Positions 1-51,600 of a stretch of DNA of 64,000 bases are shown piece by piece. This DNA is from Paraspadella gotoi (Eukaryota; Animalia; Chaetognatha), in contig CM119267.1 of the NCBI GenBank assembly GCA_051294375.1, positions 20,089,476 through 20,153,475 on the forward strand. Direction: 5' to 3'. The notes under the pieces are model-generated. The model ran no database searches. It was given only the letters and a program-made list of their open reading frames with translations, and was not told where the DNA came from. Both the position numbers and the translations under genes were made by a program. The first letter of the stretch is position 1. Each line of letters begins with the position of its first letter.

Positions 1-3000
1 AGCAATGGGAGAGAAGAGAGGAAAGGGGAAAGGAGGAAAGGGGGAGGAGGGAAGAAGGAGAGGAGCAAGGGGGAGGAGGATGAGAGGGAAGAGAGAGAAT
101 AGGGTGAAGGAGCGGGAGAAGAGCTGAAAAGAGAAGATTGCAGCATAGCACTCATCAAAATGTAAAATGTCTGATTGCGCCGTTTACTTTATCGGGGAAA
201 AAACTACATAATAAAACATTTTGTTTCAGGCGTCGAGCCTCTTGTAAATTATTATCTTTCGCAACGAAATAGAAAGATACGAAAAGGAGTTCAAAACATT
301 TGACATGGATAAAAATAATTGTGAATTCTAAAATCAATATTTTACGAAAAATTAAAAGTACTAAGAAGTTTAAATCTAAGCTCCGAAAGGAATAGTTTCA
401 CTAATTTTCCTTTTACATAACGATGACCATTAAATTAATCGGCTCTCTTTGTTTTTCCTTCTCCCCACCAACCTCGATCTGAAGTAATAAGCGTGACCAG
501 GGCGGGCGTTTTGGCCTTCCAAGAAGTCTCGCATGCCGAGTCTTGTTGGAGCAGACGATTATCTTGTCCAATCGAAGGCAGAGGTTTGAGTAACGTCTGC
601 AGTAGAGTGTGCTCGGGGCCTCACATTCCACTGCAATGGAGAGAAGTATAAATTAATATTATCTTTAAAGACTTAGGAAACGTCTATAATAACCAAATTA
701 TAAGTCGATAATTTAGGATCAGGAATAGGTTTAAAAGTTAAAATATCAACTAAGAATTTATAAAATTTTAACTAAAAAAAATATCCAGAGAGCTGGGTTG
801 ACGAACTCAAGATACGAAAAACTTGTAAATAACTAACATTTTGTAGTGTTCTCTGAGTTTACGTGTCGTTGGACAGAAATGCGGGAAAACACGCATCGAC
901 ATCGAGTAATTGCGTCCGCCTGAAGAAATGACATGAGAATTGACGAGTTAACGTAATCATGATCGAAAACAAACATATTCTTATTTTTTTCTTCGAGCAA
1001 ACAGAGATACCCGAACTGCACTTATTGCTTCGCTCGGTGAACTTTGGTCATCGTTTATCCTCCATCAGAGAGAGTCGACGTGCTCCTTAAGACGGCCTTG
1101 GATGTGACTCGATCACGTCCAGGACCTGTAGAAAGGAAATACAATGCTTTCGAGCGTAGGGGTATTGCTTGGTAGTATAGTGTTGAACGCACTTAGCGTA
1201 AAGAATGAAGTGAAAAATAAAACATGATTGATAATACCGGGTACTTGCTTAGACCCGTGACAAGAGACAAGTATTATTGTTATGAAGGTTTCAGTGATAG
1301 GACGTTGCAGATGCATAAGGCAGTCCACTGAAGCGCTTCGGATCAGCGTACATCATGTTAAGCGGGTTAGCGCCCCCGTCCCTGCTACTGCAGACGGACC
1401 AGAAGAGCGCACGGCTAGAACCCGACCTCTTGGTTTTGGGAGAGCGGAATGTACTTGCTCCGGCACAAAAATGGGCCGTGATGAACGGTTAGGTGGTTTT
1501 TATTCCACAATACATCCCTCCCGTAGAATGTCTGTTTGCGTTCTCAGTGAATATGTTTTGTTGGTGAAAGTGCATCACGCAAGCTTTGAGGCAGTGTGCT
1601 GATGTGTTGTGGACGGAAGTGCATCGCCAGGTTGAGGCATGTCGCCTGAAATTGTTTGGGTTGTTGCTGTGTGTTCGGAGTCGGGCTTCAACCAATGAAG
1701 AGCAGTAAATTATTGTTATGAGTTAGTGATAGAACGATTCATATAAGCGAGTCCTGAGCTTCGATGCAGGTGTAGCATCATAGTTACAGGCGGTTAAGCG
1801 CCGGTTACGTGGCGAGACGAGACACCGGCTAGAACCCGGCACCTTTTGGTTGGGTAGCGAAATGACTGTCCTCGCGAATGGCCTTGATAACGGTTGGTGG
1901 ATTTTATTCACATGGGACAAAAAAAAGAGATTCCAAAAAGCACAAAATGTACAAGGTGTGTGTAATCGACCGCGGATCCGGATCCATGTCTGTAGTCCGG
2001 CCTTGGGGGCATGTAAGTTGCAATGCAATCGCGGAGCTACATGTCCTACTCAGTTTTTCTGGGCTCTCGTGGGAAAGGTAGTTTCTTGACGACATGGGCC
2101 GACGGCGTAGGCCACAAGGCTTTTGAAGTGTTAAAAGTGACTGTGCGGCGGAGGTTCTGCTCTGTTACAGCCTAGATTTTTTATGTGGTTGATCGAATAT
2201 TGATAGCAATTACACGAAAAAAAAAAAAGATCAACAAGGTAAAATTTTAATTGAAAAAAAAAAGTTTTTATAATTCTCCCGTTTAATACCAGAAGAAAGG
2301 TAAAATGAATGTAGTAATTTATTAAAAAATTTAGAAGTAACATCTGAATTATTAGATAAATAAAGAATATTGTTTAAAAAAAGAAAGCATATATGATTGT
2401 AATAATAATATACGATTAGAAATACATAAACTTCATAAAATTATTAAAATAATTAAAATATGAAAAATAAAAAAATAGTGAAAACAGTGATTGCATCTTT
2501 AATAAAAGACTGGTGCCCACCAAAAGAATAGCGGGTGATGATGATACATGTTATAGATCGGGCGAGCGGCGTCGCCGAAAGTCGTCGGTGACGTAGGAGG
2601 CATCTTGTCGATCACGCGAGAGATCACGTAGTTGTTTAGGGGTTTGATCGTTGAAAAAAAAGAAGCCAAGAGCATATTTTTTTTTTTGTTTTTCAATAGA
2701 ATTTTATGATTTTTTTATTTCTAAGCAATCAGAAAGATTTTTAATTGGAATGAATAGAAAATTTAATCTTATATTTTTTTATATATTAAATGGATTTTTA
2801 AATTTGCAAATTTTATAATATTAAATTTCTAAAGTTCAATATCGGACGATTTTTCTTTAGCTCACGTCTCACCTATTTTGAGTCAGTTTAGAACATTAGC
2901 TCCCCACCCGCGCTACGAAAAGAGCTACTTGATAGGGTCGCCGACAATTAGATGCCCCTTTGTGCATTTGACCTGCAGAGACCAGAGGCTTACCGAATAG

Positions 3001-48619: not shown

Positions 48620-51600
48620 NNNNNNNNCCGAGGAGGATTTTTGGGTCAATGGTTCAAAGTGGGTCGAGGAAATCCTGTAAGGGAGGAGGTGAGAGGAGAA
48701 AATATTCTCCCGGGAAAATAACTTTGAGAGAACCGTACAGATGTGACAGAAGGGCGAGTTGAATCGTCTACGTTGTCCCGCTTTTAACGCTTTTCGCTTT
48801 GGAATTGGCACGGACTCTACGAATGGCTTTTATTGGGGCCAATCTCGACAAACAAAGACGTGAAATACATAGTATGCATTAACATGTTTTTTTTTTAAAA
48901 TAGATTGAAAAAACGAACAATCAGCATTATAAAGTGTTAGTGAATTGCATATTGTATATGAATGAGGATCTTCTTTAACTATTGACCAGTTGCTAATAGT
49001 TTTCAGCCCATGTTAATTAATTAATAGAATTATTGAAAAAATCTTTGAAGAAGAGGAGAATATAAGTTTTTTAGTACATAAGGAGAATTATCAATAGTAA
49101 CATAATTACATCTCACCCTCGATCTGGTTCGGCTGCAAATCTTCAGAGCCGGCGTCGACGAGACGTTGCATCCCGAAGACTCAAGAGGGGAAGGAGTCGC
49201 ACGAGTCGCAGAGTCGCCGACGACGTCCGTCAACTTTCGCCAAATCCGGAATCTTCAACCCGGGATCGGATATTCGGAATTGAGGGGCGGACTGAGTCAT
49301 TTTAGGGGTTGGTAAGAGGGGTTTTTAAAGGGGGAGAGGGATGGAGAAGGGATGGGGGGAGCGAGAGAGAGGGATGAAGAGAGAGGAAAAAAGAAACAAA
49401 AAGAAATAAAAGAAAGGAAAGATAAAGGGATGTTAAGTTCGAATTTAAATATATTATTTAGTATTTAAGTTTAATACAAATTAAAAATAACTAAGCCAGT
49501 AACAGAAGTTGTTAAAAATGGATCGAAAGACTTCGGAAGCTATCTTTAATTGAGAACTCGAAAAAGACTATGAACAAAAACGAAGAGAGCCGAAAAACCA
49601 GTGTTCGTCGTGGAAAAATGAAAGGAGAAGGCCGAAACTTTTACAAAATTTCTTAGGATGGATAGAGAGAGAGAGAGGAGAGAGAGAGGAGAGAGAGAGA
49701 GAAGAGAGAGAGAGAGAGAGGAGAAAGGGGGGGGGAATCACGTGAGAATATGAATAAAAAGTGATCATGTGAAAATGGAAAAATATACTCCAAAGGTCTT
49801 CCTGTTACTCTAAAACGGGCAATTAGAATTGATAAATTTCACTAAACGTATTGCACAATGTATAGTTTAATGGCGATTGGTAAGAAACGTGAGATATTTT
49901 AGAAATATTTAGGCTTACTCTGTGGAGCGAGCTTCGAATTTTCATCTTTTATTTCTACATTCTCTTAATTATTCGAGGTTTTTTAAAGGACAAGATTTTC
50001 AAGTTTTCCCTTTATTTCTCGTTCCTCATTTCAGTTCATCCGTTTTCCCTCATTTTTCAGAGACGACGACGACGAATAAGACGACGACTTTGTGAGTTTT
50101 AATCTATTCGGCCTACGCGATCCAGAAGCTCCACTCGCAAGGTGCACCCAAGAAGGAAGCAAAAAAGATGGTGATGAAGCTGGAAACATATGTTGGAATG
50201 AGTTCGCCTTGAACATATTAAAAATATTAACCCAAAAACAAACAAACAAGGAGAAAAGATATCAGATTGTTTGCGTTATAGCACGTCGGGAAAAAATTGG
50301 ATACAACCAATATAAATTATCCATTCATTTAATAAATAAGATATCCTGCCCCTGAACTTTGGACAGGTCCTGCAAGTTTTAAATCAAGACTCTGTGTGCG
50401 ATCTTTCAACATTCACACATTCACGAAACATTCCATTCAGTCAGTTCAACAGCCACATCACATGATGCAGGCGTTGTTGTTCCATCCACAGTCCTACGCT
50501 TTCCTCTGCGTTGGAAAAGCGAGACGGTCTAGGGTAAACCGCGCCAAACCCACTTTTTGTTTTGTTTTTTAGATATTTTATTTAATACAGTGAAAGGATG
50601 ACGAGGGTGGTAATGTCGCGTCGTTGCCAATCAGCGTGATCATTGTTTTTCCGATGAGACGAAGGCGAGACCATCTGGATTTCTTGGTCCGGCTCTCTCG
50701 CAAATCCCATTGAACACTCGTCGAGGACGCCCAAGCGCAGGCAGAGGGGCGCACCTGAGGAAAGAGTCACGAATATTTTTTGAGCCAACAAAAGGGAATC
50801 GAGGGGCTTGACTCAAGTTCGTTTCAACTACATCCCCTCTGTGATAAGGCTTAAGTGGCTGAAGAATGACTATCCGTAACTTCTTTAACCTCTAGCAGCT
50901 ATGGAAGCGGGTCTGGGCTTGAACCAGGCTTTGAGGGTTTTCACGCGCGCCAGGCGGCTTACGGCCGTCCTACGCTTCGCAGAGGGTAGGTACGGGTTGG
51001 GATTGAACCAGTACTGTGGTCTGAGCTGATAGTTTACTCATGAGCCACCGGGTCACAAACTGAAAAGTTGTCATTGATTCTTAGGCGGGGTGAACTAGGC
51101 AATGCGCCGGACTACATGCCCCAGATTGTAACCACCCTGCACTGCTTCCAGTGGAGGGAGGGGAGCAATGCTTCAGCTAGACCAAGAGCTGGAATCAGAA
51201 GGTTGGTAATACGCTCGACAGGATGGGCTCACGGCAGTGTGGATAAGGCGCTAGTGGGCTGAAGATGACTATTCGTAATTCTTTACTCCTCTAGCACTAT
51301 GGAAAGGGTCCTGGGCTTGGAACCAGAGATCTGAGGGTATTTCGCCGCCCAAGGCGGCTTACGGCGGTCTCGCCGCTTCCGACAGGGTGGTACCGGGTTT
51401 TGGTGATTGAACCCAGTACTAGTCGGTCATGAGCTGATGGTTTACTCAATGGAGCCACGGTCACAACTGAAAGTGTCCATTGATTCTAGGCGGGGGTGAA
51501 CCTAGGCGAATGCCCGATCTATCAAAATCACCGCTGAAAACAAGCTACAATCCACAACAACAACAACGGAAACTCCTTTCGCGCGCCTCCATTTTTCATC

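What the first reader, a model, noticed from the sequence alone, without database searches (positions are those of the whole stretch)
1258..51521. Candidate new system: miniature LTR retroelements whose LTRs couple a tRNA-like Pol III promoter to a permuted twister ribozyme (animal 'twister LTR retrozymes')
Seen: three families with no obvious primary-sequence similarity share one layout. Family 1 is at 1258-1914, 12340, 14431, 37531, 38260 and 46262; family 2 at 8188, 39362, 42324 and 54806; family 4 at 50840-51521. Each LTR is ~230-285 bp, starts TA and ends CA, and has A/B-box tRNA-like sequence followed within ~10-30 nt by a type P5 twister motif. PBS, PPT and 4-bp TSDs are visible where the sequence allows. 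Established, from memory: TRIMs with Pol III promoters in their LTRs are known (Cassandra with 5S; Helenus with tRNA-like sequence), plant LTR retrozymes carry hammerheads, and twisters occur in non-LTR elements such as Schistosoma Perere-3. I do not recall twisters being described inside the LTRs of such TRIMs. Inference: a Pol III transcript would be cut once in each LTR, releasing a ~400-430-nt monomer (one LTR plus internal region) with 5'-OH and 2',3'-cyclic phosphate ends. That monomer could circularise and be copied by an autonomous LTR element's RT and integrase.
Basis: partly seen in the sequence, partly recalled or inferred. Interest (0 to 1): 0.93.

Follow-up and report, generated by a model that had tools for sequence, protein, structure and literature searches.

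The report
Paired twister ribozymes in mini-retrotransposon LTRs
Three related families of tiny, gene-less LTR jumping elements in this probably animal genome carry, in each end repeat, a tRNA-like (likely RNA polymerase III) promoter followed by a twister-ribozyme-shaped RNA fold that is predicted to cut only when two copies pair, which would release a ~400-base RNA circle as the copying template; I found no such element in print, and cutting is untested.

Summary
The observation largely holds. Family 1 is a very abundant 234-bp LTR (TA...CA, 4-bp TSDs); it forms one two-LTR element with PBS and PPT (1258-1914, minus strand). Family 4 is also a two-LTR element. Family 2 appears only as broken LTRs, one followed by the same PBS.

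Behind the tRNA-like part, each family has the twister core in type-P5 order. Rfam misses it. However, the T1 pseudoknot differs in every family and stays complementary, and the layout arose in 0 of 20,000 shuffles of each of three LTRs.

New here: P1 is shrunk to 1-2 bp capped by a palindromic tetraloop in all three families, whereas 38 of 38 viral P5 twisters have long P1 hairpins. This mirrors amphibian hammerheads that cut as dimers, so the two LTR copies likely pair as a 'double twister'.

Against: no double-sided changes within family 1, a competing monomer fold, family 4's core read only from short-read contigs, no RNA data, and host group unproven.

Verdict: Helenus-like TRIMs that likely work like LTR retrozymes with a twister instead of a hammerhead. 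This is a new variant, not found in my literature searches.

The parts
1258..1914 (-). Family-1 two-LTR element (5' LTR about 1696-1914, internal 1515-1695, 3' LTR about 1262-1514); error-rich assembly
   Evidence: paralogous solo LTR at 12340 shares the flanks
1680..1695 (-). Family-1 PBS-like site directly behind the 5' LTR (noisy copy of the shared PBS)
   Evidence: a contig of run X10 (another organism code) shows LTR end followed by the clean PBS (table 7)
1515..1522 (-). Family-1 polypurine tract
12340..12573 (-). Family-1 solo LTR, TSD GGTC, full twister motif
14431..14664 (+). Family-1 solo LTR, no TSD seen; twister motif 14538-14613; palindromic P1 linker 14556-14561
37532..37767 (-). 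Family-1 solo LTR, more decayed
38260..38499 (-). Family-1 solo LTR, TSD AATG; P3 lengthened by a paired insertion
46262..46495 (+). Family-1 solo LTR, TSD GTAA: tRNA-like part 46295-46366 (A-box-like 46303-46314, B box 46347-46356), twister motif 46369-46444, predicted cut after 46393
42324..42546 (-). Family-2 LTR with complete twister motif (42379-42459; palindromic linker 42434-42441) but B-box region deleted
39311..39469 (+). Family-2 LTR with internal deletion (39311-39458) followed directly by the shared PBS (39459-39469); no second LTR downstream
8188..8361 (+). Family-2 partial LTR with A box (8222-8232) and B box (8258-8266); twister core deleted, P4 and P5 kept
54806..54900 (-). Family-2 fragment: tRNA-like part and 5' half of the twister with the palindromic linker (54816-54823); a noisy sister copy lies at about 50440-50545 (+)
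50840..51521 (-). Family-4 two-LTR element: 5' LTR about 51238-51521, PBS 51225-51237, PPT 51117-51122, 3' LTR 50840-51116 (A box 51037-51047, B box 51000-51009, T1 and palindrome 50959-50970, P4/L4 50913-50927)

Best explanation
These are non-coding miniature LTR retrotransposons of the Helenus type whose LTRs carry a tRNA-like, likely Pol III promoter followed by a type-P5-order twister fold that is predicted to cut mainly when two copies pair through a palindromic P1, which would release a ~400-440-nt RNA that likely circularises and is copied by a helper element's reverse transcriptase and integrase. Steps: (1) SHOWN: LTR-PBS-internal-PPT-LTR layout, 4-bp TSDs, solo-LTR formation, A/B-box-like sequence, twister core order, compensated T1 and palindromic P1. 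(2) INFERRED: Pol III starts at the tRNA-like head of the 5' LTR; family 1 has no run of four T in its clean LTRs or internal part, so it would read into the 3' LTR. (3) INFERRED: the 5'-LTR and 3'-LTR twisters pair through their palindromes and both cut at U^AA. (4) INFERRED from retrozymes: the monomer has a 5'-OH, a cyclic phosphate and no terminal repeat; its ends are held together by P5/P2/T1 and are joined by an RtcB-type ligase. (5) INFERRED: a lone twister in the circle has no stable P1, so the circle is not re-cut. (6) INFERRED: a Gypsy-type helper primes at the shared PBS, copies round the circle to rebuild two LTRs, and integrates with a 4-bp TSD.
For: Cross-family compensation: the T1 strands are CGG/CCG (family 1), CCG or TCG/CGG (family 2) and GGA/TCC (family 4, read with contig variants). 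P3, P4 and P5 differ in sequence but pair in each family. Layout matches Table 1 of Liu 2021 (PMC8501958) and Rfam consensus lines. A 3-nt P2 strand (families 1, 4) is the norm in P5-order viral twisters, 33 of 38; the two such loci among 12 scanned were called Twister-P5 by Rfam. A model built only on family 1 ranks the family-2 motif first among other loci in the window (12.8 bits, E 0.16). It hits 15 of 23 viral twister loci against 2 of 20 motif-matched decoys. P1 linkers are fully self-complementary in all three families, with duplex energies of -8.3, -11.0 and -10.7 kcal/mol, whereas 38 of 38 viral P5 twisters have 14-39-nt P1 hairpins. Axolotl hammerheads with one base pair and a palindromic tetraloop cut poorly alone and well as dimers, and RtcB circularises their monomers (PMC7229834, passages). 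Of 13 family-1 read variants, none touches the palindrome, GA, UAA, P2 or P4; three in the tRNA acceptor-like stem and one in P5 keep pairing. The plant LTR-retrozyme cycle is the model (PMC4918200, passages).
Against: No cleavage, transcript or circle data; no run is on record as RNA. Rfam gives no significant hit. Five family-1 copies show 0 pairs with double-sided change, no better than shuffles. P2 is imperfect: 2 bp plus a C-A mismatch in family 1, a C-A at the core-proximal pair in family 2, and 2-3 bp in family 4. The monomer MFE of families 1 and 4 buries T1, the palindrome and P2 in a competing hairpin; for family 1 the nested twister fold (pseudoknots not counted, P5 shortened) is -15.3 against -27.0 kcal/mol. 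The computed family-1 dimer pairs through P3 and P5, not through the palindrome. A T1-breaking variant is at 11% of depth in run X1 (4% in X9, 0.1% in X7). Family 4 was missed by the descriptors and by the model, and its 3' LTR has a T4 run upstream of the A box. Family 2 has no two-LTR copy here. The descriptors were written after I had seen the sequences.
Confidence: 0.58

Rival explanations
1. The twister is active as a monomer and mainly serves to end the transcript: it cuts in the 3' LTR in place of a Pol III terminator, the 5' copy is often left uncut, and the linear RNA keeps a ~100-nt terminal repeat for ordinary LTR strand transfer, with no circle.
For: Published animal Helenus LTRs have a T-rich tract and the LTR end shortly after the B box (supplement parts 6 and 7 of 11 read); here the twister takes that place, and family 1 has no T4. 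Twisters can cleave, inefficiently, without P1 (PMC8501958). The competing hairpin could leave one copy uncut.
Against: Both LTR copies are the same sequence, so selective cutting needs an extra cause. It does not explain three different palindromic tetraloops.
Confidence: 0.2
2. The twister is a relic: a tRNA-headed SINE carrying a twister inserted into an ancestral LTR, the promoter was kept, and the ribozyme is now inactive or dispensable.
For: Kojima proposes that Helenus arose by SINE insertion into LTRs. Twisters occur at 5' ends of RTE-type elements. P2 is imperfect, the monomer misfolds, there is no Rfam hit, and most family-2 copies have lost parts of the core.
Against: Three diverged families each keep a different but complementary T1 and a different palindrome, which a relic would not be expected to do. 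Family-1 read variants spare the core.
Confidence: 0.14
3. The fold is not a twister but another structured RNA or DNA signal (for example a 5S-like or packaging structure) that resembles one, or the elements are SINE or Penelope-like repeats rather than LTR elements.
For: No Rfam twister hit; most copies are single units; the P4 region recalls a 5S rRNA promoter motif (from memory, not tested).
Against: Two two-LTR elements, a shared PBS, PPTs, TA/TG...CA ends, 4-bp TSDs and a solo-versus-full pair at one site; no 5S hit in Rfam; the family-1 model recognises true viral twisters.
Confidence: 0.08

Closest known systems
Helenus (TRIMp3), Kojima 2024, PMC10886601 (main text parts 1-4 of 6; term search of the main text; supplement motif searches and parts 6-7 of 11)
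   Same: Non-coding TRIM under 1 kb, tRNA-like sequence in the LTR, PBS, PPT, 4-bp TSD as in animal Helenus, solo LTRs, several families per genome.
   Different: The paper has 0 mentions of twister, and 'ribozyme' only in a reference. In the LTRs read, the B box is followed by a short T-rich tail, not by the 139-158 nt with a twister seen here. The PBS and LTR-start probes of these families are absent from its supplement.
Plant LTR retrozymes, Cervera et al. 2016, PMC4918200 (passages); review PMC7761336 (passages)
   Same: A self-cleaving ribozyme in each LTR, PBS, PPT, 4-bp TSD, no coding, a monomer without R region proposed to circularise and be copied by Gypsy enzymes.
   Different: Type III hammerhead, tRNA-Met PBS, 600-1000-nt circles, plants; no tRNA-like promoter in the passages seen. 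Here a twister, another PBS, a ~400-nt unit and a tRNA-like head.
Type-P5 twister ribozyme (Rfam RF02684)
   Same: Order P2-GA-T1-P1-UAA-P2-GC-P4/L4, 3-nt P2 strand, both pseudoknots possible.
   Different: P1 is 6-8 nt and palindromic instead of a 14-39-nt hairpin; P3 and a closing P5 helix are present; T1 sequences are swapped; below Rfam's threshold.
Dimeric hammerheads of amphibian non-LTR retrozymes, Cervera and de la Pena 2020, PMC7229834 (passages)
   Same: A minimal helix capped by a palindromic tetraloop, adjacent copies in one transcript, RtcB-ligated circles of similar size.
   Different: Hammerhead in tandem non-LTR repeats without PBS or PPT. Dimer cleavage was shown there and is only predicted here.
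Schistosoma Perere-3 twister T-variants (PMC8501958; section 17 and passages) and Schistosoma Pol III SINE-like hammerhead repeats (PMC6765202, passages)
   Same: A twister tied to a retroelement; a Pol III promoter combined with a self-cleaving ribozyme.
   Different: Non-LTR elements; the twister is P1-type at the 5' end. The SINE-like repeats lose their promoter as single copies, which an LTR layout avoids.

Membership tests
Helenus (TRIMp3) | Two LTRs around a short non-coding internal region, under about 1.3 kb | tested here: met
   Families 1 (657 bp) and 4 (681 bp); family 2 shows only LTR plus PBS
Helenus (TRIMp3) | PBS behind the 5' LTR and PPT before the 3' LTR | tested here: met
   Shared PBS in all three families; PPT in families 1 and 4. 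The likeness of the PBS to a tRNA-Trp 3' end is recalled, not tested
Helenus (TRIMp3) | tRNA-derived sequence with A and B boxes in the LTR | tested here: met
   B boxes in all three families; A box clear in families 2 and 4, weaker in family 1, which folds an acceptor-like stem and a T-arm-like hairpin. ARAGORN and Rfam do not call them tRNA
Helenus (TRIMp3) | 4-bp TSD (animal Helenus) | tested here: met
   Exact in 3 of 5 family-1 solo LTRs; not resolved for families 2 and 4
Helenus (TRIMp3) | Transcription by RNA polymerase III | not testable with these tools
   No RNA run on record; also unvalidated for Helenus itself
LTR retrozyme (Cervera 2016) | Hammerhead ribozyme in each LTR | tested here: not met
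   No hammerhead hit in Rfam; a twister-type fold instead. It likely works like a retrozyme but is not a member as defined
LTR retrozyme (Cervera 2016) | LTRs, PBS, PPT, 4-bp TSD, no coding | tested here: met
   the PBS is not the Met type
LTR retrozyme (Cervera 2016) | Circular monomer RNA accumulates | not testable with these tools
   Only contigs were available; none on record as RNA
Twister ribozyme, type P5 | Conserved GA, UAA, GC and L4 loop in P5 order | tested here: met
   Families 1 and 2 in the window; family 4 only with contig variants
Twister ribozyme, type P5 | Pseudoknots T1 and T2 can pair, with covariation | tested here: met
   Three different complementary T1 pairs across families; no double-sided change within family 1
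Twister ribozyme, type P5 | P2 helix fully paired | tested here: inconclusive
   2-3 pairs plus a mismatch; 33 of 34 viral 3-nt P5-order parses were fully paired
Twister ribozyme, type P5 | P1 helix of at least 2 bp | tested here: inconclusive
   1-2 bp within one molecule, 6-8 bp if two copies pair
Twister ribozyme, type P5 | Rfam RF02684 gathering score | tested here: not met
   the Rfam model has a long P1 and no P3
Twister ribozyme, type P5 | Self-cleavage at U^A | not testable with these tools
   needs an in vitro assay

The most novel reading that the evidence does not exclude
An LTR retrozyme lineage outside plants, driven by Pol III and built on an obligate 'double twister'. The two LTR ribozymes must pair through a palindromic P1, so only full-length transcripts are cut and the resulting ~400-nt circle is stable. 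It has amplified to the order of ten thousand copies. This would be the first twister-based LTR retrozyme and the first natural dimer-dependent twister.
Probability: 0.5. Interest if true: 0.92.

Novelty: new variant of a known kind. Interest (0 to 1): 0.82.

Why it matters
Twister ribozymes are widespread but have few assigned roles; Liu 2021 states that a function had yet to be shown and then proposes one for a non-LTR element. A high-copy LTR element that keeps a compensated twister across three families gives a direct test of function. It would show that the retrozyme strategy (cut in both LTRs, circularise, borrow a retrotransposon's enzymes) does not depend on the hammerhead or on plants, and it would join two lines so far separate in print: Pol III-driven TRIMs and ribozyme-bearing LTR elements. 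A palindromic P1 would be a new way to gate a twister on pairing, relevant to ribozyme mechanism and to circular-RNA expression tools. It also shows that Rfam's P5 model misses a whole class of eukaryotic twisters.

Tried and rejected
No whole genome is held, so genome-wide copy collection and R-scape-type tests were not possible. No RNA holder was listed; this is no evidence either way, and run X9 is only guessed to be RNA. A metagenome scan with a 19-base family-1 motif gave 11 loci, all unrelated sequence without the element. A viral-contig scan for the family-1 core gave 66 loci; 5 had 3 or more P4 pairs and none looked like a twister by eye. Two protein searches meant to place the host found no scored relatives. 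The host is a eukaryote with M13-peptidase and sialyltransferase exon fragments and a tRNA-Ile(AAT) gene; 'animal' is inference. I first read family 4's T1 as mismatched, and dropped that once contig ends showed an extra G before the GGA. I first took the 3-nt P2 strand as a defect, and dropped that after the viral calibration. An 8-base match to the two Ajax LTRs in Kojima's supplement lacks the L4 loop and was treated as chance. MAFFT could not align the three families structurally, so cross-family pairing was read by hand and not scored. Earlier-finding look-ups by sequence and by place were empty. Ten literature searches showed no twister inside TRIM LTRs and no dimeric twister. One plant survey reports type-P1 twisters enriched with Copia and Gypsy elements in a single sentence (PMC11933835, passage); its supplement was not read. 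Roth 2014, Repbase and Dfam were not available, and 9 of 11 parts of Kojima's supplement were only probed with motifs.

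
Full report
What is in the window. Self-comparison shows seven related copies of a ~234-bp unit (family 1), six fragments of a second unit (family 2) and a direct-repeat pair at 50843-51513 (family 4). No whole genome is held. The host is a eukaryote with short exons of an M13 peptidase and a sialyltransferase and a tRNA-Ile(AAT) gene. An animal is likely but not shown, as two homology searches failed. The regions holding both full-length elements are error-rich, so I used contigs of public runs as a check.

They are LTR elements. Clean family-1 copies run TA...CA, and 3 of 5 solo copies have exact 4-bp TSDs. Contigs end sharply at both termini, and summed depth is about 10^4 times the flank in run X1 (not a true copy number). 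The element at 1258-1914 lies on the minus strand with a PBS-like site and a PPT, and its paralogous site at 12340 holds one LTR between the same flanks, the classic solo-LTR outcome. One PBS is shared. It stands clean behind the family-2 LTR at 39459, behind the family-1 LTR end in a contig of a second organism, and in family 4 once a 2-base excess in the window is set against the contigs. Family 4's internal region is multi-copy in 3 of 4 runs and joins the next LTR through a purine tract. Family 4 starts TG and its TSD is unresolved. Family 2 has no complete copy here. Each family has B-box sequence; families 2 and 4 have clear A boxes; and family 1 folds an acceptor-like stem and a T-arm-like hairpin. 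This fits Helenus as defined by Kojima 2024 (PMC10886601; parts 1-4 of 6 read). That paper does not mention twisters. In the two supplement parts I read (6 and 7 of 11), the animal LTRs end in a short T-rich tail after the B box, whereas here 139-158 nt follow it.

Is the motif a twister? Rfam says no: nothing at gathering score or at E<=10 in the window, nothing on family 1 alone, and a partial 14.9-bit twister-P1 match on family 2. A descriptor written from my recall of the consensus, and later checked against Table 1 of Liu 2021 and Rfam's consensus lines, gave 3 hits against 0.27 per shuffled window (30 shuffles). With P3 and P5 required it gave 4 hits (three family 1, one family 2) and 0 of 20,000 shuffles of each of three LTRs. 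It was tuned after I had seen the sequences, and family 4 as assembled did not pass. To calibrate, I pulled 119 viral loci with the common P4/L4 motif. Among 38 in P5 order, 33 have a 3-nt P2 strand as families 1 and 4 do, and all 38 have a 14-39-nt P1 hairpin. Rfam's P5 model has that long P1 and no P3, which explains the miss. A model built only from five family-1 copies ranks the family-2 motif first among other loci, weakly (E 0.16), misses family 4, and hits 15 of 23 viral twister loci against 2 of 20 decoys that share family-1 words. The strongest evidence is across families. T1 is CGG/CCG, CCG or TCG/CGG, and GGA/TCC, the last relying on contig ends and a variant. P3, P4 and P5 pair with unrelated sequences in each family. 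Within family 2, one P5 pair changes on both sides between 42324 and 8188 (seen by eye). Within family 1 there is no double-sided change among five copies (96.2% of 131 cells paired, no better than shuffles). Of 13 family-1 read variants (mapped), three in the acceptor-like stem and one in P5 keep pairing, one restores T1 where the window copy differs, two lie at the P3 loop, one lies in the tRNA-like arm, four lie in the tail, and one breaks a T1 pair in 11% of depth in X1, 4% in X9 and 0.1% in X7. None touches the GA, the UAA, P2, P4 or the P1 linker.

The new detail. The linker between T1 and the cleavage site is GGCGCT, TCCTAGGG and CGGCCG in the three families. Each is fully self-complementary: 1-2 base pairs capped by a perfect palindromic tetraloop, with self-duplex energies of -8.3, -11.0 and -10.7 kcal/mol. 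The chance of self-complementarity is 0.051, 0.014 and 0.041 (post hoc, and the families share ancestry). The linker is intact in 5 of 5 clean family-1 copies, 2 of 3 family-2 copies that retain it and 1 of 2 family-4 copies; the exceptions, and the two LTRs of the full family-1 element, lie in error-rich sequence. Axolotl retrozyme hammerheads have a single pair capped by a palindromic tetraloop, cleave weakly alone and efficiently as dimers, and their monomers are circularised by RtcB (PMC7229834, passages). I reached this reading before seeing earlier AI notes that describe palindromic P1 twisters in Naiad Penelope-like elements; those notes are unchecked and are not support.

How it likely works. 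Pol III would start at the tRNA-like head of the 5' LTR and, lacking a T4 run in family 1, read into the 3' LTR. The two twisters would pair through P1 and cut at U^AA, giving about 400 nt (family 4) or about 415-440 nt (family 1) with no terminal repeat. As proposed for plant LTR retrozymes (PMC4918200, passages), ligation to a circle lets a helper reverse transcriptase primed at the PBS rebuild both LTRs. A single twister in the circle would lack a stable P1 and so not re-cut it. Kojima links animal Helenus with 4-bp TSDs to Gypsy helpers; I saw no helper element in the window. All of these steps are inferred. Against them: P2 is imperfect in each family; the monomer MFE of families 1 and 4 buries the core in a competing hairpin (family 1: -15.3 against -27.0 kcal/mol with pseudoknots not counted and P5 shortened); the computed dimer pairs elsewhere; family 4's 3' LTR has a T4 run before its A box; and there are no RNA data. 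Rivals are a terminator-like role with linear RNA (0.20), a relic of a SINE insertion (0.14), and a look-alike fold (0.08).

Novelty. Ten searches and term searches in the papers returned showed hammerheads in plant LTR retrozymes, twisters in RTE/Perere-3 elements and in viroid-like circles, Pol III with a hammerhead in Schistosoma repeats, and one sentence on P1 twisters enriched with plant Copia and Gypsy elements. None showed a twister inside TRIM LTRs or a dimeric twister. Subscription papers, Repbase and Dfam were not seen. The elements meet the testable Helenus criteria and fail the hammerhead criterion of retrozymes while likely working like them. I rate this a new variant of a known kind, interest 0.82.

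Noticed in passing
window 12662-12705 (+); noisy paralog at about 1991-2042: A 44-bp inverted repeat running TG...CA, flanked by a 4-bp direct repeat (TTCC), whose arms match the first ~16 bases of the family-4 LTR; it looks like a minimal integrase substrate made of two LTR ends.
   Followed up: partly
window 1-3633 vs 11139-14159, and 48645-51835 vs 54192-57235: Duplicated segments at about 80-90% identity with many small indels, probably uncollapsed haplotypes or error-rich long-read fills; both full-length elements lie in them.
   Followed up: partly
window 46262-46495, run X1: Five contigs join the LTR end back to the LTR start (one with 4 letters between), that is head-to-tail LTR-LTR junctions in DNA (table 5).
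   Followed up: no
window 46283-46291 with 46450-46458: A predicted 8-9-bp helix encloses the tRNA-like part and the twister of family 1 and shows no listed read variants; in a circular monomer it would span the ligation site.
   Followed up: partly
L013, L018, L100, L109, L122 and other viral loci: Many viral contigs carry type-P5 twisters with a 3-bp P2 just upstream of ribosome-binding sites, some in arrays of several per contig.
   Followed up: no
window 10187-10260 (+): An intact tRNA-Ile(AAT) gene.
   Followed up: no
window about 14630-17260 (-) and 44072-44215 (+): Exon fragments of an M13 (neprilysin-like) peptidase, with a family-1 solo LTR next to one exon, and of a family-29 sialyltransferase; both too divergent for the homology search.
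   Followed up: partly
window 30702-31206 and 22675-22922: Minisatellite arrays, with units of about 22 bases or multiples of it.
   Followed up: no
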